From IMG/VR virus record IMGVR_UViG_3300028920_000005, positions 1-64,000 of that record: 64,000 nucleotides of DNA; one strand, written 5' to 3'. The stretch's first letter is position 1; every line of letters starts with the position of its first letter. Below, piece by piece: positions 1-54,182 of this stretch. The notes below the pieces were generated by a model. That model was not told the origin of the DNA. It was given only the letters and a program-made list of their open reading frames with translations, and searched no databases. The translations under genes were made by a program, and so were the position numbers. The stretch is from a virus.

Positions 1-6
1 ATTCAA

Positions 7-600
7 TCACTCCACTATATGATAAACTCCAAGATTAGGATTCTTGTAGGCATACTTCGCCGGCTCCTCCACCTCCTCACCCCTGGCCACTCTCACAGCC
101 ACCTCAGCCCATATCTCAGCCAACGGCGGAGCTTGGGCAGTAATCACCTTACCGTCAATAACAACAGTCCTCATATCCAATATAGCGCCAGCCCTCTTCA
201 GCGGCCCCTTCACACTATGACTATCATAACACGTAACCCTCTTCCCCTCCACAATGTCCACTAATATCGGCACTGTTGCGCAAATAGCCGCCACCACCTT
301 CTCTACACCATACATCCCCTTAATAATGTCCCTAGCCCGACTATCCTCTGTCAATATTCTTTTCCTCTTGGGCTCACCAGACGTAGCAAAGACAATATCG
401 TACTTCTGCGTCCAATTACCCTCCTCCCACACATCACTTATCACCCCACTCAACTCAACAGCAACACTCATATCTTCGGCCCAGATCTCTTTCTTCAGGG
501 CTCTAATATCATAATCCACGCCCTCCCTCTTCAAGACCTTAGTCACGGCCCTTAACTCCACAACATTGAAAATATCAGTAGGCATTATCAAAGCTCTCAA
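7..600 (-). CDS. DJ-1/PfpI family (class I glutamine amidotransferase-like) protein
   Basis: 197 aa. Blocks YDIVFATSG, VVAAICATVPILV (nucleophile-elbow Cys), GKRVTCY and VVIDGKVITAQAP occur in the order typical of DJ-1/PfpI. TTG start shortly after GGGGTGA. Confidence 0.6.
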   Translation of the reverse strand: MRALIMPTDIFNVVELRAVTKVLKREGVDYDIRALKKEIWAEDMSVAVELSGVISDVWEEGNWTQKYDIVFATSGEPKRKRILTEDSRARDIIKGMYGVEKVVAAICATVPILVDIVEGKRVTCYDSHSVKGPLKRAGAILDMRTVVIDGKVITAQAPPLAEIWAEVAVRVARGEEVEEPAKYAYKNPNLGVYHIVE

Positions 601-617
601 TCATTCACCCCATTCAT

Positions 618-887
618 TTAAGCATAACCTTTCGGAAAGTCCTTACCATCACTCCACAACCCAACACTAGTCTCCCCAAACAAATCCTCCTCCTTTATCA
701 ACACACCACCATTAAATCTATACAGAACCTCACAGTTACTGCATTGGTACCTATCGCCCGGCGCCCTCCAAAACAGAGTGTGCCCACATTCAGGACAAGT
801 GCAATCATTCAAAACACCTATATCATCTCCAATAAGAAATCTCTTATGACCTCTTAACCAGTTCATTTTATCTTCAGGTATTGGCAT
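618..887 (-). CDS. zinc-ribbon protein
   Basis: 89 aa with CTCPECGH...CSNCEV (two CxxC pairs); purine-rich sense strand. Confidence 0.55.
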   Translation of the reverse strand: MPIPEDKMNWLRGHKRFLIGDDIGVLNDCTCPECGHTLFWRAPGDRYQCSNCEVLYRFNGGVLIKEEDLFGETSVGLWSDGKDFPKGYA

Positions 888-973
888 TTACTTATCCTCC
901 ATTGAGCACACTCTTACCCTATCGTCTTACTCCTATCGCCTTACTCCTATCGCCTTACTCCTTTCCCTTTTCT

Positions 974-1375
974 CTAAATCTCGCCCTCATCCACCTTCTT
1001 CTTGGGCTTCGAGGGGCCCCATGCCTCCTCTTCCCAATCAGGGATCTCCTTTCCATCTCTATCGATATCCAGTCTCTTAAAGTACAGAACATCATTCCTC
1101 ACGACCACCGCTACCGGCATTCTGTGCTTCTTTGCATAGCCCCTCACTGTCATGGCTAAGCTACTAGCGTCCCGGCTAAACTCCTTATTGAACTCCTCCT
1201 CCGGTATCTTAGCCATATACATATCCGTCTCTATGAACGCCTTCAACAGGGGATAACTAACCGTCCCCTGCATCTTTCGCTCAGTAGCGACGACTTCGTC
1301 TTCTTTTACCGCTTCAAACTTCACCATAGGTTCACTCCCATAGTTATCTCGCGTGAAATTCCCAAATATACTCAC
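974..1375 (-). CDS. hypothetical protein
   Basis: 133 aa; stop-start overlap with the upstream gene (1372-1375); purine-rich sense strand; no motif recognised. Confidence 0.5.
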   Translation of the reverse strand: MSIFGNFTRDNYGSEPMVKFEAVKEDEVVATERKMQGTVSYPLLKAFIETDMYMAKIPEEEFNKEFSRDASSLAMTVRGYAKKHRMPVAVVVRNDVLYFKRLDIDRDGKEIPDWEEEAWGPSKPKKKVDEGEI

Positions 1376-2148
1376 TGATACGCTTTCTTATATTCCTCAC
1401 TCTCCCCACCCTTCACCCTCTTATCCATCTTCACAACACCAACACTCATCCCAGTCAATTCTTCCAAACGTTTCTGAATCAAAGCCTCTTTCTCATCATC
1501 GCTAATGTCCATTTCACAAACATCTCTAACCACAACCCTAGCAGCTTGTTGCAACGCATCCTCATCCACACCCTCACACCCCTTACTCCCACACTCCTTA
1601 CTCTCACACTCACACTTCCCACTTAACTTATCCCATACCAATTTAATCGAATCCAACACCATAGGGATCTTCTCCACTGGCACAGCATCATCTTTCAATA
1701 CACCAATGACCTTCTCACAAGTTGTCATCAGTGCGTCAAACCTTGACTCCTCCATCTCAATCTGACACAATCTCAAACTTTCCCTCACCTCCACCAACTC
1801 ATCCACACTCTCCAACATCTTGTCTGGCTGCTCTGTATAAAATATTAACTGAGCTTCTAACCTCAGCTTCTCCACCTCCCCCAATAACACATCCAGCCAA
1901 ACCGACTTTTCATAACACCTCCTAACATGTGCCTCCACCTCCCCCATCCTCTCCATCAATAACTTGTAAGATTTCTTCGGGTCATCATCATCAATGTTTT
2001 GAACAACATCCCTTATACTCTCCCACAATCGCTCAATTTCCTCCTTCTCAACACCCCTATCCCTCAACTCCTTCATCATGCTCAATAACTTATTGAACCC
2101 TTTCAAATGTCTATCGCCCACGTTCATATGCATACGTTCATTCCTCAT
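1372..2148 (-). CDS. hypothetical helical protein with Cys-rich patch
   Basis: 258 aa; start overlaps the upstream stop by 1 nt at 2148; CECESKECGSKGCEG patch; no family recognised. Confidence 0.55.
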   Translation of the reverse strand: MRNERMHMNVGDRHLKGFNKLLSMMKELRDRGVEKEEIERLWESIRDVVQNIDDDDPKKSYKLLMERMGEVEAHVRRCYEKSVWLDVLLGEVEKLRLEAQLIFYTEQPDKMLESVDELVEVRESLRLCQIEMEESRFDALMTTCEKVIGVLKDDAVPVEKIPMVLDSIKLVWDKLSGKCECESKECGSKGCEGVDEDALQQAARVVVRDVCEMDISDDEKEALIQKRLEELTGMSVGVVKMDKRVKGGESEEYKKAYQ

Positions 2149-2702
2149 TATAACACCCTCATAGGCCCACGACCTTTTAGTTTCCTACCAACCTTCTTTT
2201 TCACAATCTCCAAATCTCTATCATCATACAACCCTATCATCACATTATATTCCGCCTGCACCACACTCCTTAACAACGCCCTATCCTTCTTATAATACCC
2301 CACATAACTCTTCGGCGCGCCCCTCTCCTCCATATGTCGTACCTTCATCTCAGTAACATTATCAAACGTAACTAACTCCCTCAACTTCTTCCTTCTTGCC
2401 CTCAACATCGGATCCACTTCACCATCCATAATGTAGGCACTCCACTTCTCCTTCATCCACCCCAACAGCTCCGTCTCCTCTCTACCCCTCCACTTAATAG
2501 TAACACTCTTAGTTACCTCCTTCCCATCCACCTCCTCTCTATCTGCATACAGCTCCACTCTCTGATCATTATCAAACCATGCCATGGCCGCGAAGCCTGC
2601 AAACTTTAAGTCCTTTTCCTTATTCCTCCGCTCCTTAAACTCCTCCTTCAGAGCGTGATACTCCTCACCAGTAAAGAACCAACTAATCATCAACCCTGCC
2701 AT
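2148..2702 (-). CDS. hypothetical protein
   Basis: 184 aa, operon-packed; no motif recognised. Confidence 0.5.
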   Translation of the reverse strand: MAGLMISWFFTGEEYHALKEEFKERRNKEKDLKFAGFAAMAWFDNDQRVELYADREEVDGKEVTKSVTIKWRGREETELLGWMKEKWSAYIMDGEVDPMLRARRKKLRELVTFDNVTEMKVRHMEERGAPKSYVGYYKKDRALLRSVVQAEYNVMIGLYDDRDLEIVKKKVGRKLKGRGPMRVL

Positions 2703-2862
2703 TAATCACACGCTCCAATACTTCACCTACATCCCTCACAATATAAATATCCAAACTCCCACACACAGGACACAACCTACTCTCTTCAGGCAACTCAATA
2801 TACACCCCACACTCCGGACACCTAAACCACATCACCCAGACAGGTGGAAATTCCTCCATCAT
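2683..2862 (-). CDS. zinc-ribbon mini-protein (59 aa, below the ORF-track cutoff)
   Basis: Hand translation gives MMEEFPPVWVMWFRCPECGVYIELPEESRLCPVCGSLDIYIV... with CPEC and CPVC pairs. The ATG overlaps the upstream stop (ATGA). Confidence 0.5.
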   Translation of the reverse strand: MMEEFPPVWVMWFRCPECGVYIELPEESRLCPVCGSLDIYIVRDVGEVLERVINGRVDD

Positions 2863-2990
2863 TCCACCTTTGATTTAAAAAAGGTTAACGTATTCCTACA
2901 TATCGGACAAAATCTACTGTTCATCTTCAACATGAAATTCACATTACATTTGTCACAATAAAAAGGCCCTATACTCATTGCTTCAATCAT
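2859..2990 (-). CDS. zinc-ribbon mini-protein (43 aa, below the ORF-track cutoff)
   Basis: Hand translation gives MIEAMSIGPFYCDKCNVNFMLKMNSRFCPICRNTLTFFKSKVE. GGAGGAG lies about 9 nt upstream. CDKC and CPIC pairs. Confidence 0.5.
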   Translation of the reverse strand: MIEAMSIGPFYCDKCNVNFMLKMNSRFCPICRNTLTFFKSKVE

Positions 2991-3053
2991 CCGAACAACT
3001 CCTCCAGCCCTGCATTCATTTGTTCCTCATTCACTTACATCCCTACCTTTATC

Positions 3054-3641
3054 TCACTCCCCAGTTTCCCTTTTCCTCAAATACTCTACCACCGCCTTCT
3101 CAGCCATCATTCCGCCAATCGTCATTACTCTGGGCGCCACCCCCCAATTGTTGACATTCGCCTCAGTCTCCATATCCCCAACTATCCACCCACACATAGT
3201 CCTCCTCACCTTTATCTCACTCCCCACCCCTCCAGTCCCATTACACCCAACCCACATAACTTCCCGCGCATCCAACATCTTCCAAATATCTCTCTTCATA
3301 CCAGCACCATCCACCGCCTCAATCACAACATCGGTCTCATCCCATCTTATCAAGGGAGCGACCTGCTGTATTTTCCTCGCAATCGCCACCCACTCAATCT
3401 CCTCATCAATCCCCTCAAGCAACACGCCAGTCGCTTCCACCTTACCCCAACCAATTTGATTCCTCATGAATGCCTGATTCCTCAGATTCTTCTTCTCCAC
3501 CTTATCGGGATCAATTAAGATAAACCTCTTCACTCCTATCCTCCCCAATGCCACAGTCACATGACTCCCAATACTCCCACACCCAATTACCACAACCTTC
3601 ATCTGTTTTACAGAGTCCTTATCCTCATAACTGAACTTCAA
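3054..3641 (-). CDS. ThiF/MoeB/E1-like adenylyltransferase (compact, 195 aa)
   Basis: VVVIGCGSIGSHVTVALGRIGVKRFILIDPDKVEKKNLRNQ matches the E1 Rossmann signature GxGxxG...D.D.V...NL.RQ. Later blocks DVVIEAVD and GVAPRVMTIGGMMAEKAVVEYL match the E1 adenylation-domain layout. Confidence 0.7.
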   Translation of the reverse strand: MKFSYEDKDSVKQMKVVVIGCGSIGSHVTVALGRIGVKRFILIDPDKVEKKNLRNQAFMRNQIGWGKVEATGVLLEGIDEEIEWVAIARKIQQVAPLIRWDETDVVIEAVDGAGMKRDIWKMLDAREVMWVGCNGTGGVGSEIKVRRTMCGWIVGDMETEANVNNWGVAPRVMTIGGMMAEKAVVEYLRKRETGE

Positions 3642-3645
3642 ACTC

Positions 3646-4917
3646 TTACCTCCTTAATCTTACCATCTCAGTCGATTTAAGTGGACCATTCGCTCTCGCA
3701 ACATCCATAACCTCGTTAACCAACTCTTCAAACGACGCCCCACACCCCGGACAATACTTCCAATTAATGGAATGCACGCCCTTCCTAAAACCGTGACATG
3801 TATTCCGCACATTAGTTAAATCCATGCCACATCTGCAAGACTCAATGTATGATGGCGTCAACCACCTATCAATCTCTTCAACATCCATCCTCAACAAGTT
3901 AAGTAAATTTAATGCCGCATCACTATTAACAAGCACATGATACGGCTCATAACTTCTGCCATCTACCGTCAAATCAAATTTATACAACTCTTCATCATTA
4001 TAAATACATATAAGCTTTATCAAACCATACCTACTCGACAACACTTCCCCCTTAACCTCACCCAACATCTTCTCCACCTTCTCCTTCACACTCCCCAACT
4101 TCTCACTCTCCATCCTCACCCTCTCCGCATTATACGACTTAGCATAAATCTTAACCTGTCGCCTAACCCCTCTCTTAATTTTTCTAATCTCATTAATTCC
4201 TCCCAACCACTCTGACTCCACTCTATAAAGCAATACCTTACTATGCCCCCAACTCCCACGACCATACCAACAAACATCATACACGCCCACCCTCGGCCGC
4301 TCAATACCAACCCTCGCCCCAATCCCCTTCAACACATTCCTCTCCAACCATTTAAACTCTCTCTTCATATGTCTTAAGAATTCACCTTCATTCCAAGTCC
4401 AATGCTTACGTTCATCCTTCAACCAATCTGCCGCAAGCTCCGTCAACTTAACTTCCACCTCACCCTCCCACTCCTCACTCTCCCTCCTCAACATCAATCC
4501 ACTAACCATTAACTTTGTCAAAACACTCTTACCACCCCTACTCCCAACACCCTGCAATTTCGACATCACTACCTTCTCCAATACCCATCTTTCCTCGCCC
4601 CCTAACCTATTCACAATCTCCAACACCTTCCAACCATTACTCCTCCACGAAGGCCCATGCGCATAACTATTAACTTTACCTAAACTCGTAACCTCCAATC
4701 CAACATCTAACATTCTCCAAACATCTTCGCAAAGACTTTCAACAATCTCTCTACGCTCTAAATTCTTCATCGCGGGCTTAATTGCCTTCACCCCACACCC
4801 ACTCATCCCCTTCAACTCTTCCAAAGTTCTAATGTACCCAATCCCAGTATCCGCATCCCCTTCTCTCATACAATCCAAAATCATCTTCTGACTACGCGAC
4901 ACCGTTTCCCGCATCAC
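3646..4917 (-). CDS. wHTH / C-terminal zinc-ribbon protein, paralogue A
   Basis: 423 aa. N-terminal winged-helix-like segments. C-terminal CRC...WKYCPGCGASFEEL shared with the neighbouring paralogue. Confidence 0.6.
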   Translation of the reverse strand: MMRETVSRSQKMILDCMREGDADTGIGYIRTLEELKGMSGCGVKAIKPAMKNLERREIVESLCEDVWRMLDVGLEVTSLGKVNSYAHGPSWRSNGWKVLEIVNRLGGEERWVLEKVVMSKLQGVGSRGGKSVLTKLMVSGLMLRRESEEWEGEVEVKLTELAADWLKDERKHWTWNEGEFLRHMKREFKWLERNVLKGIGARVGIERPRVGVYDVCWYGRGSWGHSKVLLYRVESEWLGGINEIRKIKRGVRRQVKIYAKSYNAERVRMESEKLGSVKEKVEKMLGEVKGEVLSSRYGLIKLICIYNDEELYKFDLTVDGRSYEPYHVLVNSDAALNLLNLLRMDVEEIDRWLTPSYIESCRCGMDLTNVRNTCHGFRKGVHSINWKYCPGCGASFEELVNEVMDVARANGPLKSTEMVRLRR

Positions 4918-6154
4918 TACTACCTCCCTTAATGATCCTAGCCTTCTCCAATACCTTATCCTCCATCTCTTTTATATTGGCCCCACACACTGGGCAATAC
5001 TTCCACTTCACGTTATCATATAACAATCCACCAAAGTTCGTCTTACAACTCATGCACTCTCTCAGTTGCGCCCTACTCAATAACCTCTCTACGTGATCGC
5101 CCTCTCTATTCAACCACATTAACTTCGACAACCAATTATCATACCGACTAACTCTCTGCGCCGGCACAATACAGATCCTCCTTCCATTTAATTCAAACCA
5201 TGCATTATCCACCCCACCCTTCAACTCCAACACCCCGAACACGGTCTTCATACTATTAACATAATTCGGATTATCCAAATAACTTTCAGCCATCATCGCG
5301 GCCTTCTTATACTCCTCTGACACATTCTCAGTGCGCCTCTCCGCCGCAAACCGATTGCCAGTCTCCTGCACAAACTTCCGCTTATAACTCTGCAACCGGC
5401 TCTGACTATTTAACTCATCCACCTTAATATCCATTTGCCTCGTGCCAACGCCCCTCGTATATCTTACCCTCAATACCTCCACCTCATCACCCATTGGCAC
5501 TATCTCATGCGATATGTACTCTTCAAACTTCTGAACGTAACTCACGAACCTCTCCACATAATCAATATTATCCTCAGCGCCTACCAACTTCTTCACCATC
5601 GCTTTGCCGAAATCAGTTATCTTAAACTCTTTCACCTGCAACTCTTCATTATCCCTCATATCAAGATACCCACTTGCCACCATCTTCGCTATAACTGAAT
5701 TGCTCTCTCTGCCACTGGGACACAACACTGGTCCAGGGATCCACCTCCCCTCTTCTTTAGCCTTCTTCAGTAACTCTGAACTCGAAGTATTAGGTCCAGG
5801 CCGACTCGTATACGCATTAACCATCGACCAAACAGATTCATTGTCACTCATCTTCGTAACAACAAACTTCAACTCTCCCTTCTTTACCATCTCCCTTGTT
5901 TCCTTAGTCACACGATAATAAGCCACCTCTCCGCCGTCGTTAAGGATACTCATGTTAACGTGACCCCTCTCTCTGAGGTTATTCATCTGACCATTAACTC
6001 TCTTCGTATAAGACGCCTGCCAACTTTCCCAACGCCTCTCCTCCTCTGTAGCAACCTCCAATGCCATCTCATGGGCATTATACGCAAGGTCAGAGTGCTC
6101 TATCAATAAATCTAATACGTTCTTCTGTATCCTTCCTACATATTCAGTCTTCAT
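4892..6154 (-). CDS. wHTH / C-terminal zinc-ribbon protein, paralogue B
   Basis: 420 aa. Same architecture as 3646..4917 with C-terminal CMSC...WKYCPVCGANIKEM. 26-nt overlap with paralogue A. Confidence 0.6.
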   Translation of the reverse strand: MKTEYVGRIQKNVLDLLIEHSDLAYNAHEMALEVATEEERRWESWQASYTKRVNGQMNNLRERGHVNMSILNDGGEVAYYRVTKETREMVKKGELKFVVTKMSDNESVWSMVNAYTSRPGPNTSSSELLKKAKEEGRWIPGPVLCPSGRESNSVIAKMVASGYLDMRDNEELQVKEFKITDFGKAMVKKLVGAEDNIDYVERFVSYVQKFEEYISHEIVPMGDEVEVLRVRYTRGVGTRQMDIKVDELNSQSRLQSYKRKFVQETGNRFAAERRTENVSEEYKKAAMMAESYLDNPNYVNSMKTVFGVLELKGGVDNAWFELNGRRICIVPAQRVSRYDNWLSKLMWLNREGDHVERLLSRAQLRECMSCKTNFGGLLYDNVKWKYCPVCGANIKEMEDKVLEKARIIKGGSSDAGNGVA

Positions 6155-6278
6155 TACAACTACCCCTTATACTACCTACAGTGAGCACACACTCATGTCA
6201 AAAATCAAAGGACGGTCGCTCAGGGGACAGAAGTCGCCCTTCATTACGACCGCCACAGGCAAGCCAACTTAAGCTCGC

Positions 6279-6494
6279 TCACCCGCCAGTCTGATCAGCG
6301 ATCAGGTCCAATGTCACGACTTCGGCCGCAAGTTTTCCACCCTGCTCATAGCTGGTTACGGGCACACCAGCAGCATCCAGCGCCACTAGGTAATACCCTT
6401 CCCTCTCCAGCTCTTGGGCCCTCTCTAAGGCCTGCAGGGGTTCCAACTCACACTCCGAATGTCCTGATTCATCTTGGACTCTCACAAGTGTCAT
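6279..6494 (-). CDS. small protein ending in Gly-Gly; candidate ThiS/MoaD/SAMP-like ubiquitin-like carrier
   Basis: 71 aa. Strong SD (AAAGGAGGTGAACC-ATG). Ends ...LIADQTGG-stop. Size and YYLVALDAAGVPV...VVTLDLI pattern resemble ThiS-type beta-grasp proteins. Visibly more GC-rich than the flanks. Confidence 0.4.
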   Translation of the reverse strand: MTLVRVQDESGHSECELEPLQALERAQELEREGYYLVALDAAGVPVTSYEQGGKLAAEVVTLDLIADQTGG

Positions 6495-6659
6495 GGTTCA
6501 CCTCCTTTGTGTTGTTGTTCTCTGTGTTAGTATTTAGCGTCATCATTCCTGCATCATAATCATTGAAACTTCACAAGAGTGCACAACTCAGATATCCTCG
6601 TATGTATATATAAAATGTTCGGACTGTTGGTTAGCACGCTCAGCCTCTCAGTTCTCTAT

Positions 6660-6980
6660 TCAATAATCACCATTCCTGTTCCCATTCTCCTCCACTTCGA
6701 TAGCAAATCGCTTATGCGACATCCTCACATACACGACCTTAACATCGAAGTCCGTCTCTTCGCATTCCGTCAAATCCGGCACAATTACGTTAACTAATTG
6801 CTGCACGTCCTTCTTCCTCCCCCTCAATATCAGTGCAACGTTGCAATACCAATCATCCGGTATCCTCGAATCATCACCATTGCGTTTCGCTGCTACCGCT
6901 GCTTCGTGCTCCCAATCAAATGCCGTAATTTCTTTCTCAACATCGTTCTCTGTTTCTTCAATACCAATTTCTTTATCCAT
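6660..6980 (-). CDS. hypothetical acidic protein
   Basis: 106 aa; GGAGGTG 7 nt upstream of the ATG at 6980. Confidence 0.55.
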   Translation of the reverse strand: MDKEIGIEETENDVEKEITAFDWEHEAAVAAKRNGDDSRIPDDWYCNVALILRGRKKDVQQLVNVIVPDLTECEETDFDVKVVYVRMSHKRFAIEVEENGNRNGDY

Positions 6981-7582
6981 TCTCTACACCTCCATTTCCA
7001 TTCCCAAACCATTTCATCCCATTCTCTATCAATCTTCAGTCGACGTATATCTCGATCCAACATAGGCACGCCAGTGTACCCCTCACACCACATGAATTCA
7101 AAGTCATGGTTCGCCGGTGGATTCATACTTCCTGTAACATGCCACTCCTTATTCTCCTCCGCCATGTAACAACTAATCATGTTCCTTCTTTGCAATATCG
7201 TTATATGAGCCTTCATCACATCCCACTGCTCGGCCGTATTAATCCTAAATATGTCAACTAACCTTATAACTGGGAACGTGGCCCAATCATAATCCCTCAA
7301 CATCCCCCACATCTTATTAATCTCATAATCAGTATGTACGAATGTCGCCCTAGTCATATCCACGGGCACAAGTTCTCCTCTCTTCATCTCATACTTATCT
7401 ACTCGGTCAACGTACGCTACATCATAACTCTCCCCATCACTCTCCAACCCCACCCCTTCAAAAATTTCCTCGATCACATCAGCCTTCGGCCTCATAGCTC
7501 CGGGCCCAGACTTCTTTTGCCTGGCGCTATGCCTAGCGGCGTAGAAAGCCGTCTCTGATGCATTCCTCGGATTATATCCCAT
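6893..7582 (-). CDS. hypothetical protein
   Basis: 229 aa, Trp-rich; the 3' end overlaps the next gene by 88 nt. Confidence 0.5.
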   Translation of the reverse strand: MGYNPRNASETAFYAARHSARQKKSGPGAMRPKADVIEEIFEGVGLESDGESYDVAYVDRVDKYEMKRGELVPVDMTRATFVHTDYEINKMWGMLRDYDWATFPVIRLVDIFRINTAEQWDVMKAHITILQRRNMISCYMAEENKEWHVTGSMNPPANHDFEFMWCEGYTGVPMLDRDIRRLKIDREWDEMVWEWKWRCREWIKKLVLKKQRTMLRKKLRHLIGSTKQR

Positions 7583-7613
7583 AGTGCTTACTCCTTCAGT
7601 GCTTCGTCCTTTA

Positions 7614-7826
7614 TCATTTCACCTCTAACAGTCTACCATTCCGCCTCCTCAGCGGCCTCCTATGTAGGCCGTTACCTTCAGTCTTACAAATATGACATCT
7701 GAAACTCTTCCCAGTGTAATACACACCACTGTCCCCTCTCTCTATCGATATCATTTCGTAATACACTGGTTCATAATCAGGGATATGTCTCCCACACGCC
7801 CCACAAGCTATCCCCTTCATAACCAT
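7614..7826 (-). CDS. zinc-ribbon protein
   Basis: 70 aa with CGACGRH...CHICKTEG. Confidence 0.5.
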   Translation of the reverse strand: MVMKGIACGACGRHIPDYEPVYYEMISIERGDSGVYYTGKSFRCHICKTEGNGLHRRPLRRRNGRLLEVK

Positions 7827-8089
7827 CCCAACACGTCAAGGATCCTACCTTCAATGTTCTCTAACTCATCGATCAACCAATTCCGATCCAAATACTGATC
7901 CTCCTCCGTCACCATCTTTCGAAGGTTACTCATATCTTTTTCTATTATCTTCTTCCAGACAACCTTGGTCTCATCCTCCGGTAACCTATCTCTCATTTCT
8001 TCAAAAGTACTCACACCGTAGTACTCCATCAGCCGATCCATTTGCCTCACATTCAATTCATTTATTTCCATAATCTTATCTCCTACCAT
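7817..8089 (-). CDS. hypothetical protein
   Basis: 90 aa, operon-packed, purine-rich sense strand. Confidence 0.45.
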   Translation of the reverse strand: MVGDKIMEINELNVRQMDRLMEYYGVSTFEEMRDRLPEDETKVVWKKIIEKDMSNLRKMVTEEDQYLDRNWLIDELENIEGRILDVLGWL

Positions 8090-8319
8090 ACTTTAACATA
8101 CTCTCCATGCTCCCCCGTAAAATCCGTTATCGTCCCCACCTCACAAATCCACCCATCGCCCACCGCTAAATCAATCACAATAACCACACCCACATACGGC
8201 GGCCATGCTACTCTCACAAACAAACAATCATCAATCTCAAGTACACCATCGCCCACACCCTCACACATCGGTCCTTCTGACCTCCCCCACATCCCCACAT
8301 CCGCACGTCGTTGTTTCAT
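8083..8319 (-). CDS. hypothetical protein
   Basis: 78 aa, operon-packed. Confidence 0.4.
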   Translation of the reverse strand: MKQRRADVGMWGRSEGPMCEGVGDGVLEIDDCLFVRVAWPPYVGVVIVIDLAVGDGWICEVGTITDFTGEHGEYVKVW

Positions 8320-8323
8320 AATT

Positions 8324-8524
8324 TCACTTCCTCAGTTCCTCAATCAACATTTCTTTGAACACTGACACAGTCGCTCTGATGAGCAACCCAATCTCCTTCT
8401 CCCATTCCACCTCCTCATCCCATTCCACCTCCCCCACATCCCAAACGATATCCTCCATATCCTCATCCCAGATTATTGCCCTTCTTAGTTCAGCAAAATT
8501 CACTCTCTCACCTTTAATTCCCAT
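8324..8524 (-). CDS. hypothetical acidic protein
   Basis: 66 aa, W/E-rich. Confidence 0.4.
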   Translation of the reverse strand: MGIKGERVNFAELRRAIIWDEDMEDIVWDVGEVEWDEEVEWEKEIGLLIRATVSVFKEMLIEELRK

Positions 8525-8732
8525 CTCCCAACATCTTCGTAAACGTCTCTTCCATCCCCATCATAAACTTTTCCAACTCATTCCGCCGTGCTATCCAAAT
8601 TCTTCTCTCCTCACTTCTTATCGCTTCGTTCTCCAGTATCTCAAACACCTTCTCTCTGAACTTCGCATTCAAATCCAAAAATCGGAATGAGTGCGGGTAA
8701 TCACTTTTCATTCCCAACATCATCTGATACAT
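8514..8732 (-). CDS. hypothetical protein
   Basis: 72 aa, operon-packed. Confidence 0.4.
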   Translation of the reverse strand: MYQMMLGMKSDYPHSFRFLDLNAKFREKVFEILENEAIRSEERRIWIARRNELEKFMMGMEETFTKMLGDGN

Positions 8733-8747
8733 CTTATCACTCCTTAA

Positions 8748-8876
8748 TTATATCGCCCTCGGTTCAAGATCATCTTCAGTAAGTCCAATCGGACAGTGCC
8801 CAGTATAGGGCGCACTGCAACGCTCACAGTACCTCGGGTAGTCTCTACACTTCTCACGTTTCTCCTTCTCATTCAT
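8748..8876 (-). CDS. Cys-rich mini-protein (42 aa, below the ORF-track cutoff)
   Basis: Hand translation gives MNEKEKREKCRDYPRYCERCSAPYTGHCPIGLTEDDLEPRAI. GGAGGTG lies 7 nt upstream of the ATG. Confidence 0.5.
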   Translation of the reverse strand: MNEKEKREKCRDYPRYCERCSAPYTGHCPIGLTEDDLEPRAI

Positions 8877-9122
8877 TCCAATCCACCTCCAATACAAATC
8901 ATTCTTAATCTTCACCCTTGGTAGGCGAGGGAACCCTTCAATTCAGATTCCCCCGCTCTACGGGTTCGGTCATTAAGTCGGCCGACAGACGTAAGGCTTT
9001 CCAGGTAGCCTCTCACCTTCAATACAGCATGTCGATCTCTGATCAACACACTTGCTTCCGTGCTGCTCACAGGCAGTCACTGGCAGTCACTTATCTGGTG
9101 CGTATGGTACACAGGCCCTATC

Positions 9123-9404
9123 TCATGCCATGCTGTACACGTTCTGACCGCGAAGAACCTTCTTCACTTCGCTCACCTTCGAATTCTTGACCAGGGTCTG
9201 AAGGCTGGAAAAGGTACTCTCGTGCCTCTTGATCCCAGCTCCCTTCTTGATCTCCTCGACGGTGAACCATGCGGGCTTCCCGGCCTTCTTCCGCTCAGCG
9301 GTTGCTTTGCGAAGGAAAGCCAGTATAGCCTCCTGGTTCGATCCTGCGGCCACCTCGTGCATCTCGCACAACTGAGACAGTTCCTCGTTAGACAAAGTCT
9401 TCAT
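9123..9404 (-). CDS. hypothetical protein, possibly DNA-binding
   Basis: 93 aa. SD TAGGAGGT upstream of the ATG. Sits in a GC-rich patch that differs in composition from its neighbours. Confidence 0.5.
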   Translation of the reverse strand: MKTLSNEELSQLCEMHEVAAGSNQEAILAFLRKATAERKKAGKPAWFTVEEIKKGAGIKRHESTFSSLQTLVKNSKVSEVKKVLRGQNVYSMA

Positions 9405-9618
9405 GTGTTCGATACCTCCTAGGTGTTCGACTTGTTGCGTTCACATGTCTAGCCCACAAACGATCAGTCCCTCGGACAATCCTTCAGATAATCCTTTAGA
9501 CCAACCTCCTCCTCCGCCACACCCCATACAGAAGAGGGAGGAAGCCACTAGTCCTCCCTCTCTCTGCGGGTGGGCGATCAGGATCTTCTTCCCAACCGCC
9601 AAACCATATCAGGCTTCC

Positions 9619-9813
9619 CTACTCTCCTTCCCCCGTTTCGCTTTCCAAATACTCAAGATGAGCAATCCACACATTGGCAGTCTCCTCTACCATATCCTCC
9701 ACAATACTCTCGATACCACCTTGCGGCTTTCCGATCCGCTTCTCAGCCTCCCCCCTCCAGTACTTGATCTTCTGCACTACCTCGTCTGACAGCTCAATAG
9801 TATATTTAGCCAT
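9619..9813 (-). CDS. hypothetical small protein
   Basis: 64 aa; overlaps the next gene start by 8 nt. Confidence 0.4.
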   Translation of the reverse strand: MAKYTIELSDEVVQKIKYWRGEAEKRIGKPQGGIESIVEDMVEETANVWIAHLEYLESETGEGE

Positions 9814-10276
9814 TCCAATTCACCTCGATCATCCAACGAACATATCTCAGGGCCGCAACCTTCGCCACATCCTCCAGATCACACCACTCCACGCACCCTG
9901 ATCCCACCCCTATGTATGCACCCTCTCTGATCTCGTCATACTCATTCTTCATCCACCCTATGTACTCCGTCAAGAGGGCAACCTCCTGATGCACACACAC
10001 ATCATCATCAGTAACCCCATACTCCTTCCCAACACAACTCACACATGCCACCACTCCACCACCAGCATAACATCCAATCATCTCAATGTCTTCAGCAAGC
10101 TGACGATCATCCTTCGGATTCCAAAACTGCTCATCTTCGCCGCTGGCCGCTACCCATGGCTCACACTCTTTTATGTGTCCGCTCTCTACTCGAGACTCAC
10201 ACACATGATCCATCAGTACGCCAACCAGCGTCTCATGCTCATTCATTTGTTTTCCACATACGTAACATTTCTTCAA
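9806..10276 (-). CDS. Cys-rich hypothetical protein
   Basis: 156 aa. TTG start 6 nt after GGAGGT. N-terminal CYVCGKQ plus further Cys clusters (CVSCVG). Confidence 0.5.
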   Translation of the reverse strand: MKKCYVCGKQMNEHETLVGVLMDHVCESRVESGHIKECEPWVAASGEDEQFWNPKDDRQLAEDIEMIGCYAGGGVVACVSCVGKEYGVTDDDVCVHQEVALLTEYIGWMKNEYDEIREGAYIGVGSGCVEWCDLEDVAKVAALRYVRWMIEVNWNG

Positions 10277-10417
10277 TCAATTACCTCCGTCTGTACTCTT
10301 TAATCTCTTCCTCCACCTCCACCCCCTCCCTATACAGACGAGGGAGGCTAAGTCGGCAGTCACCTGCACCTCATACTCTCAGCCTCCCCCGTCCTGCGGG
10401 ATGGGATCTGTTCATCC

Positions 10418-10849
10418 TTATTTCTTCAACACCATATCTACAACATACTCCAACATCGTCTTACCCGTTAAAACGGGTATTATATCATCTGTCCTGAAGT
10501 CGTTGTTATCTACCCAGTAACACAACACTCGGTAGACAATATTCTCCTGTGTGGCTGCCTCCTTCATCTCTCGATCTACATCCTGCACCGTTATGCTTAC
10601 GTCATACATCTTGACAAGTACCTTACCTGCCAACAAATGCATCTTCAGCTCATCCAACAACGACTTCCCTTCGCCACCCTCATCCCCATCCATCTCCTTC
10701 AACGTACAATATACGCTGTGCGCCATATACGTTAGAAGGCAATTCCCCTTCTGTTCGTTGGACAGGCTATCAAACTCACCCTCCAACCCATTCACCGCCA
10801 TCATCTTCCGCATAAGATCATTCGGTGATATGAATTCAAACCCCGCCAT
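10418..10849 (-). CDS. hypothetical protein
   Basis: 143 aa; the ATG overlaps the upstream mini-ORF. Confidence 0.5.
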   Translation of the reverse strand: MAGFEFISPNDLMRKMMAVNGLEGEFDSLSNEQKGNCLLTYMAHSVYCTLKEMDGDEGGEGKSLLDELKMHLLAGKVLVKMYDVSITVQDVDREMKEAATQENIVYRVLCYWVDNNDFRTDDIIPVLTGKTMLEYVVDMVLKK

Positions 10850-10949
10850 TCTTCTTCCTCCTTATCAGATACCCAGTCCCATTGCACTTCTCACAATCAC
10901 CACCTCTCCTCCCCTTACATTCAGGACACTTCACATATCCAACGCTCAT
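10836..10949 (-). CDS. DnaJ-type CxxCxGxG zinc-finger mini-protein (37 aa, below the ORF-track cutoff)
   Basis: Hand translation gives MSVGYVKCPECKGRRGGDCEKCNGTGYLIRRKKNGGV. ATGA overlap with the upstream stop. Confidence 0.45.
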   Translation of the reverse strand: MSVGYVKCPECKGRRGGDCEKCNGTGYLIRRKKNGGV

Positions 10950-11173
10950 TCCCTCACCACCTTAATCATTACGTACGCCCTCTTCACATCATCCGTCTTG
11001 CACCCAATAACCTTCCTCACCACTATATCCTTGTTCTGCCGAATGATACTTCTCACTGTTCCCTCCACCATCTCTAACTCCTCCGACAGTTCCTCATAGG
11101 TGTACGCCGTTCCTGCATTCTTCGTCAAGAAGTCAATTACCTTCTTTACATTTGTTTCATGTACTCCATTCAT
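10946..11173 (-). CDS. winged-helix DNA-binding protein
   Basis: 75 aa. KKVIDFLTKNAGTAYTYEELSEELEMVEGTVRSIIRQN resembles an HTH followed by a wing. Confidence 0.5.
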   Translation of the reverse strand: MNGVHETNVKKVIDFLTKNAGTAYTYEELSEELEMVEGTVRSIIRQNKDIVVRKVIGCKTDDVKRAYVMIKVVRE

Positions 11174-11243
11174 TTGTTATCACCTCCTCAACACTTCGTA
11201 AAGCGTCGAGCGTCATAAGTAACTATATTCGATTGTCTGATAA

Positions 11244-11819
11244 CTACTTTCGGAATTCTGTATCCCAGCAGTCTCTACTATAACTAAGTTCGTACAGACC
11301 TCCATCCTCGTGATGTTCGTCTGCTTCAACCTTCAGTACTTCAATCATCACACTATAAATATACATACACTCTTCACCGCACGCTAAAGGCCCTCTTCCC
11401 ATGTTATGTGCTTCAACCTTCAAAGTGTAAGTGTTCTTAAATTCTGATTCAAGTATGCTAATTGCTTTCAGCGTATCATCAAGCACATTCAGGTATACAT
11501 GCAACTTCATTCTGCCTCCTACCTTCAATACCCTCCACATCTCACGTATGGCGCTCTCATCAGTGTATACCATTACGCAACAACTCGAATGTACTTCTTC
11601 GAACGACTCATCCTTAAATGGCAACTGTTCTCCATCCGCTGCCACATAAAGTCCTTCATGTTTCGTTCCACGCCACCCGTACCTTCCTTCTGCACCGAGG
11701 TCTACGATAGCGCAGTCGTCAGTATACGGATCGCTACCTGCTCCAACGTCAAGCTTCATACAATCAACCTTCCAATCAACTTTCCTTCTTCGCAAATTAA
11801 TATTGTCGGTAGAAAGCAT
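11244..11819 (-). CDS. class I SAM-dependent methyltransferase
   Basis: 191 aa. Motif I LDVGAGS, acidic loop IVDL, LPFKDESFEEVHSS, and post-III REMWRVLKVGG, typical of Methyltransf_11-like enzymes. Substrate unknown. Confidence 0.6.
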   Translation of the reverse strand: MLSTDNINLRRRKVDWKVDCMKLDVGAGSDPYTDDCAIVDLGAEGRYGWRGTKHEGLYVAADGEQLPFKDESFEEVHSSCCVMVYTDESAIREMWRVLKVGGRMKLHVYLNVLDDTLKAISILESEFKNTYTLKVEAHNMGRGPLACGEECMYIYSVMIEVLKVEADEHHEDGGLYELSYSRDCWDTEFRK

Positions 11820-11852
11820 TCCTGATCGGTTCTTCTTCCGTACATAATTCTT

Positions 11853-12524
11853 TCACCAATCCATCTTTCCTAATGACTCCTTAACTTCTTCCTCCTCCCA
11901 CATATTCCACCTAGGCTCCTTAACAGCCAACAGTATCTCATCCCATCCGATATACATAAACAGTCTTACCATCACTGGCGCGAATTGCGTATACTGTTTA
12001 CGTTCACTCTTCAATTCCTTAATCTTGCCTTTTAACTTCTTCTTATCGTCATACGAACTAACTTTATTCACCTTCTGTTCAATATTCATTATCTTGTCAC
12101 TCAGTGCTGCGTGTTCTTCCTGTGCTCCTGCTTTCCTACTCGGTATTCTCATCCACTGCAGTTTAGTGTCGTTATTACTATCCAAGTCGAACATATGCTC
12201 TCTGAACACCTGCCTACTGTATGAGTACAAGTATTTAAAGTCAGGCTTACAGTATTCTTCATTGTCCAAATACTTCTGTCTGTGTGCATTGCAAACGTAG
12301 TGCAGTACTTTTCGCTTCAACTGCCATTCAGCAACCCTCTCAACTCCGTGCTCCTTACATTCGGCACAAAATCTTACCGGCTTACCTTCAGGCTTCATAA
12401 AGTACTCCCACGTTTGTCTAAGCTCCTCCAATTCGGCCGCATCCCGTATTCCAAGTAACAGCGATTTATATTCAGCGTAAGTCTTAAATCCGTTTGCCTT
12501 CATACTCCATCCGGCCTTCTTCAT
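11853..12524 (-). CDS. hypothetical protein (first gene of the leftward block)
   Basis: 223 aa. CAEC...CNAH Cys/His pairs. AT-rich TATA-like box (12541-12550) about 20 nt upstream of the ATG. Confidence 0.55.
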   Translation of the reverse strand: MKKAGWSMKANGFKTYAEYKSLLLGIRDAAELEELRQTWEYFMKPEGKPVRFCAECKEHGVERVAEWQLKRKVLHYVCNAHRQKYLDNEEYCKPDFKYLYSYSRQVFREHMFDLDSNNDTKLQWMRIPSRKAGAQEEHAALSDKIMNIEQKVNKVSSYDDKKKLKGKIKELKSERKQYTQFAPVMVRLFMYIGWDEILLAVKEPRWNMWEEEEVKESLGKMDW

Positions 12525-16957: not shown

Positions 16958-17391
16958 TTTTTTTTATTTCATTTATAATGTTACACATATTGTAATATTG
17001 TATATTATTAATTATATTTTTTTTTAATAAATTTCAATTTTTTTTTAATACCTACCGCAACGTATCTATACAATATAGCCTAGTTCAAAACCCTTGTCCC
17101 AAAATTCGGGTAACCAAAAGTTCCTGTGGACCCTGGCGTCGTTCCTATGGGCCGTGCCATTGTGTTAGGGCCGCGCCGCTTAAACCACCTATATAAGATA
17201 TTTGAATATATTAACATATGCGCGGAGGGCATTGCCGATTTGCTGCCGTCCTGCGATATCATATGTATATATATAAGAAGGGCGCTGCGCCGCTGTCCTG
17301 TTGCATTATAGTTTGGGGCCTTGTCTCTTTGTCCCTTTGCTTAAGACTTCCCCTCCCATCGGAGGAGGGGATTTATCGACAGTCCCATATC

Positions 17392-17400
17392 TTTATATAT
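17392..17400 (+). promoter_or_regulatory. TATA-like box TTTATATAT upstream of the rightward late block
   Basis: Lies 18-26 nt upstream of the in-frame GTG at 17418. A hairpin CCCCTCC-N-GGAGGGG at about 17351-17370 precedes it. An archaeal-type or bacterial -10 reading cannot be distinguished. Confidence 0.35.
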
Positions 17401-54159: not shown

Positions 54160-54182
54160 TTTATCACCTGTTCTTTACTCAG

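What the first reader, a model, noticed from the sequence alone, without database searches (positions are those of the whole stretch)
3054..6494. Candidate virus-encoded ubiquitin-like modifier (71 aa, C-terminal Gly-Gly) with a compact E1-like activating enzyme
ORF 6279..6494 has a strong ribosome-binding site (AAAGGAGGTGAACC-ATG) and ends ...LIADQTGG-stop. That leaves an exposed di-glycine terminus, as in ThiS/MoaD/SAMP/TtuB/ubiquitin-type beta-grasp carriers. Its length and its YYLVALDAAGVPV...VVTLDLI layout resemble ThiS-like proteins. On the same strand, 2.6 kb downstream, ORF 3054..3641 carries the diagnostic ThiF/MoeB/E1 adenylation signature (GCGSIGS...LIDPDKVEKKNLRNQ, DVVIEAVD, GVAPRVMTIGGMMAEKAVVEYL). 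It is only 195 aa, with no rhodanese, E2-binding or JAB domain visible. I saw no E2 or JAMM partner in the window. A DJ-1/PfpI cysteine-hydrolase-like gene sits at 7..600. The GG-protein gene is visibly more GC-rich and less purine-loaded than its neighbours, which would fit capture from a cellular genome. Two functions are possible. One is SAMPylation-like protein conjugation, used for host manipulation or to counter Ubl-based defences. The other is sulfur-carrier chemistry feeding a nucleoside modification. I do not know of a described Ubl/E1 pair carried by a tailed virus, so this is worth testing.
Basis: partly seen in the sequence, partly recalled or inferred. Interest (0 to 1): 0.8.

Follow-up and report, generated by a model that had tools for sequence, protein, structure and literature searches.

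The report
Virus-encoded Gly-Gly modifier with E1 enzyme
A tailed virus carries a small protein ending in Gly-Gly and a compact ThiF/E1-type activating enzyme, and the same two gene families recur together, usually with a JAMM protease, in dozens of uncultured marine viruses, so this looks like a family of virus-borne ubiquitin-like systems that I found no description of.

Summary
ORF 6279-6494(-) encodes 71 aa ending ...DQTGG-stop behind a strong RBS. ORF 3054-3641(-) is a 195-aa ThiF-family protein (Pfam E 4.8e-20).

- The E1 is a diverged short ThiF. Its closest cellular relatives are ~200-aa ThiFs that sit next to, or are fused to, ThiS-like proteins. The canonical NxxRQ arginine is displaced (KNLRNQ).
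- The 71-aa protein has no Pfam, PHROG or PDB match, and two shallow AlphaFold models did not give a beta-grasp.
- Comparative genomics supports it strongly. All 3 close homologues end in GG.
- Profile comparison (95.4% probability; at most 1.8% for shuffled controls) joins it to a 65-80-aa family in marine viral contigs. That family has an invariant C-terminal GG, usually followed by 1-3 extra residues as in Ubl precursors.
- All 16 distinct marine loci with enough upstream flank carry this protein upstream of a short E1. Most also carry a JAMM peptidase.
- This virus shows no JAB or E2 in 74 of its 89 kb.

Most likely the E1 adenylates the GG terminus. Conjugation without an E2 is favoured over sulfur carriage, but this is unproven. 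I rate it a new variant of a known kind.

The parts
6279..6494 (-). Gene for the 71-aa GG-terminated small protein, the candidate ubiquitin-like modifier or carrier
   Evidence: The ORF and its translation are. All three close homologues end in GG-stop. hhalign to the marine viral NETGHT...GG family gives 95.4% probability, E 1.7e-8, against at most 1.8% for shuffled controls. It is the only hit to the family HMM in the window.
6495..6508 (-). Shine-Dalgarno region AAAGGAGGTGAACC immediately upstream of the ATG
   Evidence: Read directly from the sequence.
6607..6627 (-). Promoter-like motif ACAGTCC-N6-TTTATATA about 115 nt upstream of the GG-protein start. It is conserved upstream of the orthologues in L001 and L004.
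   Evidence: Alignment of the three upstream regions. The window holds 3 exact copies and 4 with up to 2 mismatches, against 0.31 expected.
4892..6154 (-). Protein A, 420 aa, unknown function, with a C-terminal CxxC...CPxCG zinc ribbon. It lies between the GG gene and the E1.
   Evidence: Orthologues occupy the same position in L001. In L144 the orthologue (49% identity) sits directly upstream of the E1. No Pfam or PDB match.
3646..4917 (-). Protein B, 423 aa, a diverged paralogue of A
   Evidence: hhalign of A against B gives 98.7% probability over 359 columns. It is present in L001 and L002 and absent between A and the E1 in L144.
3054..3641 (-). Compact E1-like, ThiF-family adenylyltransferase homologue, 195 aa
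   Evidence: Pfam PF00899 at E 4.8e-20. NCBIfam short ThiF NF006395 scores 124.9 bits, below its cut-off of 159. PDB profile hits are MccB, UBA5, TcdA, MoeB, Cap2 and ThiF. The closest non-viral relatives are ~200-aa ThiFs.
7..600 (-). DJ-1/PfpI-family gene. It is syntenic in the relative L001, but a functional link to the pair is not shown.
   Evidence: Pfam at E 1.3e-15. The orthologue in L001 scores E 2.8e-80. The nucleophile-elbow Cys is retained (AAICA, read).

Best explanation
The 71-aa protein and the 195-aa enzyme form a virus-encoded modifier and activating-enzyme pair.

Shown:
- The enzyme is a ThiF/E1-fold protein derived from the short ThiF lineage. The cellular members of that lineage sit next to, or are fused to, ~66-aa ThiS-type proteins.
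- The small protein belongs to a virus-specific family whose one invariant feature besides an N-terminal (D/N)-x-(T/S)-G-H motif is a C-terminal Gly-Gly.
- That family travels with short E1 genes in two very different virus groups, and with a JAMM peptidase in the marine group.

Inferred:
- The E1 binds the small protein and uses ATP to adenylate its terminal glycine.
- The activated terminus is then passed directly to lysines of viral or host proteins, without an E2. This is how archaeal SAMPs with UbaA, bacterial TtuB with TtuC, and Urm1 with Uba4 work.
- In the marine relatives the JAMM enzyme trims the 1-3 residues that follow GG and may also remove conjugates.
- In this virus the protein is made already ending in GG and no JAMM gene was found, so no processing is needed. 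Removal, if any, would depend on a host enzyme.

The gene has its own promoter-like element and a strong RBS, which fits an abundant product made in the early or replication gene block.

The confidence of 0.45 is for the whole chain including E2-independent conjugation. For the pair-and-adenylation step alone I estimate about 0.7.
For: 1. E1 identity. Pfam ThiF scores E 4.8e-20. The best NCBIfam model is the short ThiS-adenylating ThiF. GxGxxG, the ribose Asp (LIDPD), the Lys (GKVE), the Mg/phosphate Asp (EAVD) and the C-terminal GD and AP(R/K)V motifs align with short ThiFs.
2. Closest cellular relatives. They are ~200-aa ThiFs at E about 1e-26, many fused to an N-terminal ThiS-like domain (PF14453). 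In L064 the short ThiF sits directly next to a canonical 66-aa ThiS ending in GG.
3. GG conservation. All three close homologues of the 71-aa protein (49-66% identity) end in GG-stop although the preceding residues differ: ADQTGG against SGIRGG.
4. Wider family. hhalign of the window family against the marine family gives 95.4% probability, E 1.7e-8. Reversed and 30 column-shuffled controls give at most 1.8%. The marine HMM hits P0002 at E 2.4e-5. The 22 distinct members align end to end with GG in one column, and 15 of them carry 1-3 extra residues after it.
5. Co-occurrence. 16 of 16 distinct marine short-E1 loci with at least 6.5 kb of upstream flank carry the GG protein. None of 27 loci with other E1 classes do. 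The layouts differ between lineages: Ubl next to E1 (L054), Ubl-JAB-E1 (L138), Ubl...E1-JAB (12 loci) and Ubl-A-B-E1 (this window). This argues for a functional link and against inherited gene order alone.
6. The JAMM partner in the marine group is identified by an HTHPFGxAYFSGTD motif, AMSH-like PDB hits and Pfam Prok-JAB.
7. No sulfur-acceptor enzyme and no rhodanese or other extra domain on the E1 was identified; the Pfam scans covered the larger window ORFs and the conserved genes of one marine locus.
Against: - A beta-grasp fold is not demonstrated. Two AlphaFold models built on 2- and 3-sequence alignments reach pLDDT 66 and 73. They show a confident beta-beta-alpha-beta N-terminal part and a low-confidence C-terminal helix. 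Foldseek finds nothing with E below 1.
- Profile similarity to ThiS-like domains is only 47-49% probability, and 3% against a single ThiS. No Pfam Ubl model reaches significance.
- The conserved Arg of NxxRQ, which contacts ATP in MoeB and ThiF (established knowledge), is Asn here, with Arg or Lys one position earlier. Adenylation activity is therefore assumed and not assured.
- Within this virus lineage the two genes are 2.6 kb apart and separated by two unrelated genes. Only one relative (L001) shows both genes on one contig.
- No E2, no JAB and no identified target.
- GG followed by a short extension and paired with a JAMM enzyme also occurs in pure sulfur-carrier pathways such as QbsE/QbsD and CysO/Mec+ (established knowledge). 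The marine context therefore does not prove conjugation.
Confidence: 0.45

Rival explanations
1. Sulfur carrier. The E1 adenylates the GG terminus, and a host persulfide donor converts it to a thiocarboxylate. That thiocarboxylate delivers sulfur to a cofactor, a tRNA or the heavily modified viral DNA, as ThiS, MoaD, TtuB and QbsE do.
For: - The closest cellular relatives of the E1 are ThiS-activating short ThiFs.
- There is weak in-register profile similarity of the family to ThiS-like domains.
- GG with a short extension plus a JAMM enzyme is also the QbsE/QbsD and CysO/Mec+ pattern (established knowledge).
- The virus invests in nucleobase modification: QueC, FolE2, QueE and QueD lie at 53.3-57.8 kb.
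Against: - No rhodanese domain on the E1 and no cysteine desulfurase were seen.
- No sulfur-acceptor enzyme (ThiG, MoaE, CysM, or a TtuA/NcsA-type PP-loop enzyme other than a clear QueC) turned up among the window ORFs scanned or the conserved marine module genes that had a Pfam hit.
- The 7-deazaguanine genes lie about 47 kb away and need no sulfur (established knowledge).
Confidence: 0.22
2. Not a pair in this virus. The GG protein has an unrelated role, for example as a small regulator or inhibitor. The E1-like protein acts alone on another substrate, as TcdA does on t6A in tRNA, or is a non-catalytic scaffold because it lacks the canonical Arg.
For: - The two genes are separated by 2.6 kb and two other genes.
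- Synteny among close relatives could simply be inherited.
- The Arg of NxxRQ is replaced.
- The fold of the small protein is unresolved.
- TcdA and other Ubl-independent ThiF enzymes appear among the PDB hits.
Against: - The same two families co-occur in a very distant virus group, 16 of 16 against 0 of 27, in several different gene orders that include direct adjacency.
- The invariant terminal GG and the precursor-like tails have no ready explanation outside E1 or JAMM chemistry.
- ThiF relatives that lack RQ typically carry K, R or H just before the Asn. This suggests a relocated positive charge and not decay.
Confidence: 0.15
3. C-terminal tailoring of a ribosomal product. The E1-like enzyme adenylates the small protein's C-terminus to make a nucleotidylated or otherwise modified protein that acts as a toxin or effector, as MccB does with MccA and PaaA with its peptide.
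For: MccB is the best PDB sequence hit of the E1 profile (E 2.8e-16) and PaaA is also found.
Against: - That match covers only the generic Rossmann half, residues 8-111.
- The 195-aa protein is too short to hold MccB's N-terminal peptide-clamp domain; MccB chains are 348-358 aa.
- MccB chemistry needs a C-terminal Asn (established knowledge), and here the terminus is GG.
- Over its full length the E1 is most similar to short ThiFs.
Confidence: 0.05

Closest known systems
Short ThiF with ThiS (NCBIfam PRK08644 / TIGR02354 lineage, including ThiS-like-ThiF fusions; example L064)
   Same: A ~200-aa E1 fold without Zn-ribbon or rhodanese domains. Full-length alignment shares the EAxD, xGxxG, (Y/W)IVGD and AP(R/K)V motifs. 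The partner is a 65-71-aa protein ending in GG.
   Different: - The score is below the curated ThiF cut-off, 124.9 against 159.
- SNLNRQ is replaced by KNLRNQ.
- No ThiG, ThiH or ThiE context.
- The small protein does not match ThiS models.
- The genes are virus-encoded and not adjacent.
Archaeal SAMP/UbaA/HvJAMM1, bacterial TtuB/TtuC and eukaryotic Urm1/Uba4
   Same: A GG-terminated small protein, a single E1 and no E2 or E3. A JAMM enzyme is the protease in the sister viral clade. These systems serve both conjugation and sulfur carriage (established knowledge; PMC4443979, PMC4895103, PMC2948915).
   Different: UbaA, TtuC and Uba4 are larger, have the canonical Arg and, in Uba4, a rhodanese domain. 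No sequence-level membership of the viral protein in the SAMP, MoaD or ThiS families was found. The system here is encoded by a virus.
Bacterial anti-phage Ubl systems: type II CBASS Cap2/Cap3, and Bil and Bub operons
   Same: E1-type adenylation of a C-terminal glycine with a JAB partner. PADLOC E1-E2 and NCBIfam 6A-MBL Cap2 models hit the N-terminal Rossmann part of the viral E1.
   Different: Those E1s are fused to, or paired with, an E2 and are host-encoded defences (PMC10097602, PMC10557695). Only residues 7-134 match. No E2 is present here.
Marine viral Ubl-E1-JAMM module found here (e.g. L034, L018, L138)
   Same: A homologous GG protein and a short ThiF-family E1 that lacks the RQ arginine. 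Both lie in the early or replication region, near ribonucleotide reductase in the marine loci and in the replication-side gene block here.
   Different: - The marine viruses add a JAMM peptidase, and most of their Ubls carry 1-3 residues after GG.
- Their E1s are only about 24% identical to the window E1 and diverge in the C-terminal half.
- They carry a TFIIB-like gene, which points to archaeal hosts.
- The intervening genes are unrelated to A and B.
E1-like genes already reported in tailed viruses: crass-like phages with a JAMM-motif protein next to a ThiF-like gene, and Nidhogg (Helarchaeota) viruses
   Same: A virus-borne ThiF/E1 homologue (bioRxiv 10.1101/2021.07.29.454249).
   Different: No dedicated free GG protein is annotated or was found beside those genes. 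The Nidhogg report proposes hijack of the host ubiquitin system.
Lambda and T1 tail assembly protein I with TAPK (Ubl domain plus JAB)
   Same: A Ubl-type domain with a conserved C-terminal Gly, together with a JAB peptidase, in tailed phages (PMC1779556).
   Different: No E1 is involved, and those genes lie in the tail-assembly cluster. Here the genes lie in the non-structural block and include an E1.

Membership tests
ThiF/MoeB/E1 superfamily (Pfam PF00899) | Profile HMM match above the curated gathering score | tested here: met
   72.2 bits against a cut-off of 28.1, E 4.8e-20, covering residues 3-184.
ThiF/MoeB/E1 superfamily (Pfam PF00899) | Nucleotide-binding GxGxxG loop, ribose-binding Asp, phosphate-binding Lys and Mg/phosphate Asp | tested here: met
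   G20-C-G-S-I-G25, D44 (LIDPD), K67 (GKVE) and D111 (EAVD) are invariant columns in the alignment with short ThiFs and marine viral E1s.
ThiF/MoeB/E1 superfamily (Pfam PF00899) | Conserved Arg of the N-x-x-R-Q motif (Arg73 in E. coli MoeB) | tested here: not met
   The motif is KNLRNQ, KNVRNQ or KNLKNQ in all five family members. Asn aligns with the Arg of MccB's NLTRQ. Almost all short ThiF relatives have SNLNRQ. An Arg or Lys sits one residue earlier.
ThiS-adenylating ThiF (NCBIfam NF006395 / TIGR02354 equivalogs) | Score at or above the curated equivalog cut-off | tested here: not met
   124.9 bits against 159 for NF006395, and 74.7 against 152.2 for TIGR02354.
ThiS-adenylating ThiF (NCBIfam NF006395 / TIGR02354 equivalogs) | Genomic association with thiazole or thiamine genes (ThiS, ThiG, ThiH/ThiO, ThiE) | tested here: not met
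   No such family appeared among the window ORFs scanned against Pfam or in the precomputed Pfam hits for the next 10 kb.
Ubiquitin-like beta-grasp modifiers and carriers (ThiS, MoaD, SAMP, TtuB, Urm1, ubiquitin) | Exposed or processable C-terminal Gly-Gly | tested here: met
   The protein ends in GG-stop. GG is invariant in 22 distinct family members, 15 of them with 1-3 trailing residues.
Ubiquitin-like beta-grasp modifiers and carriers (ThiS, MoaD, SAMP, TtuB, Urm1, ubiquitin) | Beta-grasp fold | tested here: inconclusive
   The AlphaFold models have pLDDT 66 and 72.6. Their beta-beta-alpha-beta start is compatible with a beta-grasp, but the C-terminal third has low confidence. Foldseek against the PDB gives no hit with E below 1. 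The alignments held only 2-3 sequences, because the tool does not accept the marine homologues.
Ubiquitin-like beta-grasp modifiers and carriers (ThiS, MoaD, SAMP, TtuB, Urm1, ubiquitin) | Sequence-profile membership (Pfam ThiS PF02597, ThiS-like PF14453 and similar models) | tested here: not met
   The window protein and its two close homologues have no ThiS, MoaD or ubiquitin match in Pfam, and the window protein none in NCBIfam, PHROGs or PADLOC. One of 14 marine members hits ThiS at E 0.018. hhalign to ThiS-like domains gives 47-49% probability.
Ubiquitin-like beta-grasp modifiers and carriers (ThiS, MoaD, SAMP, TtuB, Urm1, ubiquitin) | Conserved genomic association with an E1-like adenylating enzyme | tested here: met
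   The window and L001 keep both genes. In the marine clade 16 of 16 loci carry both, against 0 of 27 for other E1 classes. The genes are adjacent in L054 and L138.
Prokaryotic Ubl conjugation operons (Ubl-E1-E2-JAB: Bil, Bub, CBASS type II) | E2 (UBC-like) component | tested here: not met
   No Pfam or PADLOC E2 hit among the neighbours tested. The 133-aa and 184-aa proteins downstream of the E1 contain no Cys. PADLOC E1-E2 models match only the E1 half.
Prokaryotic Ubl conjugation operons (Ubl-E1-E2-JAB: Bil, Bub, CBASS type II) | JAB/JAMM peptidase | tested here: not met
   No JAMM motif or marine-JAB HMM hit in the window or in 64-74 kb of the contig. About 15 kb of the genome was not examined. 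A JAB is present in the sister marine clade.
MccB/PaaA-type peptide C-terminal adenylating enzymes | N-terminal peptide-clamp domain and a substrate with a C-terminal Asn | tested here: not met
   The protein is 195 aa and starts 19 residues before GxGxxG. The MccB match covers only residues 8-111. The candidate substrate ends in GG.

The most novel reading that the evidence does not exclude
Tailed viruses of prokaryotes encode their own dedicated ubiquitin-like conjugation systems. These consist of a virus-specific GG modifier family, a minimal E1 that needs no E2, and usually a JAMM protease. During infection the viruses would use them to tag host or viral proteins, for example to send host factors to proteolysis, to regulate the adjacent transcription-factor-like proteins, or to blunt host Ubl-based immunity. 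The window would represent a JAMM-less branch that makes the modifier in mature form.
Probability: 0.35. Interest if true: 0.85.

Novelty: new variant of a known kind. Interest (0 to 1): 0.7.

Why it matters
Ubl-E1-JAB systems in prokaryotes are currently studied as cellular sulfur-transfer pathways, as archaeal SAMPylation, and most recently as host anti-phage defences (CBASS Cap2/Cap3, Bil, Bub). This finding points to the mirror image. A modifier family confined to viral contigs, with its own minimal E1, recurs in at least two unrelated groups of tailed viruses and is common in marine viral metagenomes.

If it conjugates proteins, it would be a virus-encoded post-translational tagging system in prokaryotic viruses. 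That would be comparable to what eukaryotic viruses do with ubiquitin. It would also give a very small E1 and modifier pair (195 and 71 aa) for mechanistic work, including how an E1 functions without the canonical arginine.

If it carries sulfur, it would point to an unknown sulfur-dependent step in viral nucleic-acid or cofactor chemistry.

Tried and rejected
1. Direct family searches of the 71-aa protein against Pfam, NCBIfam, PHROGs and PADLOC gave nothing. Profile searches of the marine family against PDB sequences gave nothing relevant. Four marine members gave sub-threshold hits to the PinA inhibitor family (best E 0.0055). I judged these to be noise.
2. Structure route. 
3. The k-mer-indexed search of 5.8 billion proteins found only three distinct members of the close family, even with a profile. 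IMG/VR holds no close relative of the E1, and the genome collection holds none either.
4. I looked for homology between proteins A and B and the conserved marine module genes (the TFIIB-like gene, the 430-aa c4 family, RNR, c6, c7). There is none beyond an 11-15-column zinc-knuckle match. The A/B and c4 profiles against the PDB gave nothing.
5. Host assignment failed.
- The closest RNR matches are bacterial MAGs at 43-49% identity.
- TerL is only about 25% identical to any GenBank phage.
- The window has no megablast match among GenBank phages.
- The sample accessions do not occur in the paper library.
- The TATA-like promoter motif is suggestive of an archaeal host but not decisive.
- The sigma-70 promoter scan is at background and no intrinsic terminators were found.
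6. 'Recent capture from a cell' is rejected, because the GC-rich composition is shared by diverged orthologues.
7. I rejected treating the DKVE(E/K)KN motif shared by the window and marine E1s as evidence of kinship, because it was the search pattern used to fetch those loci.
8. Rfam found no family anywhere in the window.

Full report
OBSERVATION

The two ORFs exist exactly as described. ORF 6279-6494 on the minus strand encodes 71 aa ending ...LIADQTGG followed by TGA, and AAAGGAGGTGAACC lies directly before the ATG. ORF 3054-3641, also on the minus strand, encodes 195 aa with the quoted motifs. It matches Pfam ThiF at E 4.8e-20, well above the gathering score.

ORF 7-600 is a DJ-1/PfpI protein. 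The GG gene is GC-richer and less purine-loaded than its neighbours. The window comes from a tailed virus. It encodes TerL, a portal, an HK97-like capsid protein, a tape measure, baseplate J and a sheath-like protein. All coding strands are strongly G-rich and C-poor.

THE E1-LIKE PROTEIN

The best curated model is the short ThiS-adenylating ThiF, NF006395. It scores 124.9 bits, below the cut-off of 159. So the protein is a relative of that family and not a certified member.

An exhaustive profile search of 1.84 billion representative proteins found one cluster for the viral family itself. The next hits were ~200-aa ThiFs at E about 1e-26. Many of those are 262-278-aa proteins with an N-terminal extension. 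The extension is a ThiS-like ubiquitin domain. In the bacterial contig L064 a short ThiF sits directly next to a canonical 66-aa ThiS ending in GG.

Alignment shows that the viral E1 keeps several features:
- the GxGxxG loop;
- D44, K67 and D111;
- the C-terminal (W/Y)IVGD and AP(R/K)V motifs of short ThiFs.

One canonical residue is missing. The Arg of NxxRQ is Asn, with Arg or Lys one residue earlier, giving KNLRNQ, KNVRNQ or KNLKNQ. Among the relatives listed, those that lack RQ usually have K, R or H just before the Asn. This pattern looks like relocation of a positive charge and not decay, but that is an inference. The 195-aa size is normal for this subfamily.

THE 71-AA PROTEIN

On its own it is an orphan. 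It has no hit in four HMM libraries. Only three distinct close homologues exist among 5.8 billion proteins. All three end in GG-stop, although the residues before GG differ.

In the 16.9-kb relative L001 the order is GG protein, A, B, E1, several small genes, then DJ-1, the same as in the window. In L144 an orthologue of A lies directly upstream of a 53%-identical E1.

The key result came from the loci fetched with the E1 alignment. Many marine viral contigs carry a 65-80-aa ORF a few kilobases upstream of a short E1, on the same strand. Its consensus is MxLxIxNETGHTEL...HPTHWVFIDGxMVSRE...VDLTPAIVGG, and it usually has 1-3 further residues after GG.

Profile-profile comparison joins the window family to this family at 95.4% probability, E 1.7e-8. 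Reversed and 30 column-shuffled controls give at most 1.8%. The marine HMM alone hits P0002 at E 2.4e-5. A joint alignment of 22 distinct sequences runs end to end with GG in one column.

Co-occurrence is strict. All 16 distinct marine short-E1 loci with at least 6.5 kb of upstream flank carry the protein. None of 27 loci with other E1 classes do. Most marine loci also have a JAMM peptidase just downstream of the E1. Gene order varies between lineages:
- Ubl next to E1 in L054;
- Ubl-JAB-E1 in L138;
- Ubl ... c4, TFIIB-like gene, E1, JAB in twelve loci.

Because the association survives these rearrangements, it is better explained by function than by inherited synteny. The marine viruses carry a TFIIB-like gene, which suggests archaeal hosts.

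WHAT IS NOT SHOWN

- The beta-grasp fold was not recovered. Foldseek finds nothing.
- Similarity to ThiS-like domains is in register but weak, at 47-49% probability and 3% against a single ThiS.
- This virus has no JAB, E2 or second Ubl in the window or in the next 10 kb of its 89,216-nt contig. About 15 kb remains unseen.
- Proteins A and B are paralogues of each other. They have no detectable relatives in Pfam or the PDB.
- The host is unknown. The RNR points to bacteria. A conserved ACAGTCC-N6-TTTATATA element upstream of the GG gene and at two other sites looks like an archaeal TATA promoter.

MECHANISM

The best-supported reading is that the E1 adenylates the terminal glycine of the 71-aa protein. 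I rate this pair-and-adenylation step at roughly 0.7. What happens next is inferred.

I favour E2-independent conjugation to proteins, as with SAMP, TtuB and Urm1. Two observations lead me there:
- No sulfur-transfer domain or sulfur-acceptor enzyme accompanies the module in either virus group.
- JAMM enzymes persist in marine loci even where the modifier already ends in GG (L018, L058, L075). That suggests a role beyond precursor trimming.

A sulfur-carrier role is the main rival, since the E1's ancestry is ThiS-activating. My probabilities are about 0.45 for conjugation, 0.22 for sulfur carriage, 0.15 for no functional pair, and the rest for other chemistry.

COMPARISON AND NOVELTY

E1-like genes in tailed viruses are already on record. 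Crass-like phages have an E1 next to a protein with a JAMM motif, and the genes are annotated as hypothetical proteins or as a metalloprotease. Nidhogg viruses of Helarchaeota are reported to encode E1-like proteins that might hijack host ubiquitin. Lambda-like phages have a Ubl domain with a JAB peptidase in tail assembly.

Searches of the paper library, GenBank phages and PHROGs turned up no description of a dedicated free GG modifier family paired with a minimal E1 in prokaryotic viruses. I therefore rate this a new variant of a known kind. The window is a JAMM-less branch whose modifier is made in mature form.

The orthologues in L001 and L004 share the GC-rich composition.

Noticed in passing
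window 53353-57813 (-); also L170 5901-6623 (outside the window): A complete 7-deazaguanine (preQ0) synthesis set is present: QueC 53353-54159, FolE2-type GTP cyclohydrolase 55445-56371, radical-SAM QueE 56603-57271 and QueD/PTPS 57271-57813. This implies that the virus modifies guanines in its DNA. A 240-aa protein just beyond the window could be the DpdA/TGT-like transglycosylase, but it was not tested.
   Followed up: partly
window 1-12000 and throughout: The coding strands are extremely G-rich and C-poor. GC skew reaches 0.6-0.8 in 200-nt windows and flips sign with gene orientation. Relatives share this (L144 0.66-0.72). The cause is unknown.
   Followed up: no
window 6607-6627 (-), 17379-17399 (+), 31989-32009 (-): The motif ACAGTCC-N6-TTTATATA occurs three times exactly, and four times with up to 2 mismatches against 0.31 expected. 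It is also conserved upstream of the GG-protein orthologues. It is probably a virus-specific strong promoter and resembles an archaeal TATA box.
   Followed up: partly
window 31549-32095, minus strand: A ~550-nt gap lies between structural genes. It has one copy of the promoter motif on the minus strand and no convincing ORF. The 386 nt downstream fold with a z-score of -4.1 against shuffles. Rfam has no match. This is a candidate structured non-coding RNA.
   Followed up: partly
window 3646-6154 (-): Two ~420-aa paralogues, A and B, have a C-terminal WKYCPxCG zinc ribbon (hhalign 98.7%). By eye their N-terminal regions look like winged-helix domains; this was not tested. They are found only in this virus lineage and have no Pfam or PDB relatives.
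   Followed up: partly
L034 5518-5763, L055 10522-10761, L043 10513-10755 and others (marine relatives): A second small protein of ~80 aa sits between the E1 and the JAMM gene in the marine module. It has a CxxC...HxxxH motif. Six of seven members end in GG plus one residue (MGGI, MGGV, TGGL, QGGV). It may be a second GG-type substrate or an adaptor.
   Followed up: no
window 7-600 (-): A DJ-1/PfpI-family protein that keeps the nucleophile-elbow cysteine (AAICA). It is conserved in the relative L001. It belongs to the class I glutamine-amidotransferase-like fold. It might serve the deazaguanine pathway or act as an amidase, but no link to the Ubl-E1 pair was shown.
   Followed up: partly
L170 6648-10004 (same contig, about 64-67.5 kb, outside the window): A family B DNA polymerase of 1,118 aa is interrupted by a LAGLIDADG intein-type domain.
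   Followed up: no
L171 (crass-like phage cr128_1, MT774392.1 20.6-22.8 kb): A protein with a JAMM motif (HSHNNMSTFFSGTD) lies directly upstream of a 321-aa ThiF-like protein whose motif is also non-canonical (RVNLSGQ). Both are annotated as hypothetical proteins, one with a metalloprotease note. The same layout, a JAMM-motif gene next to the E1, recurs in IMG/VR loci L007-L013, L019 and L025. No free GG protein was seen next to them.
   Followed up: partly
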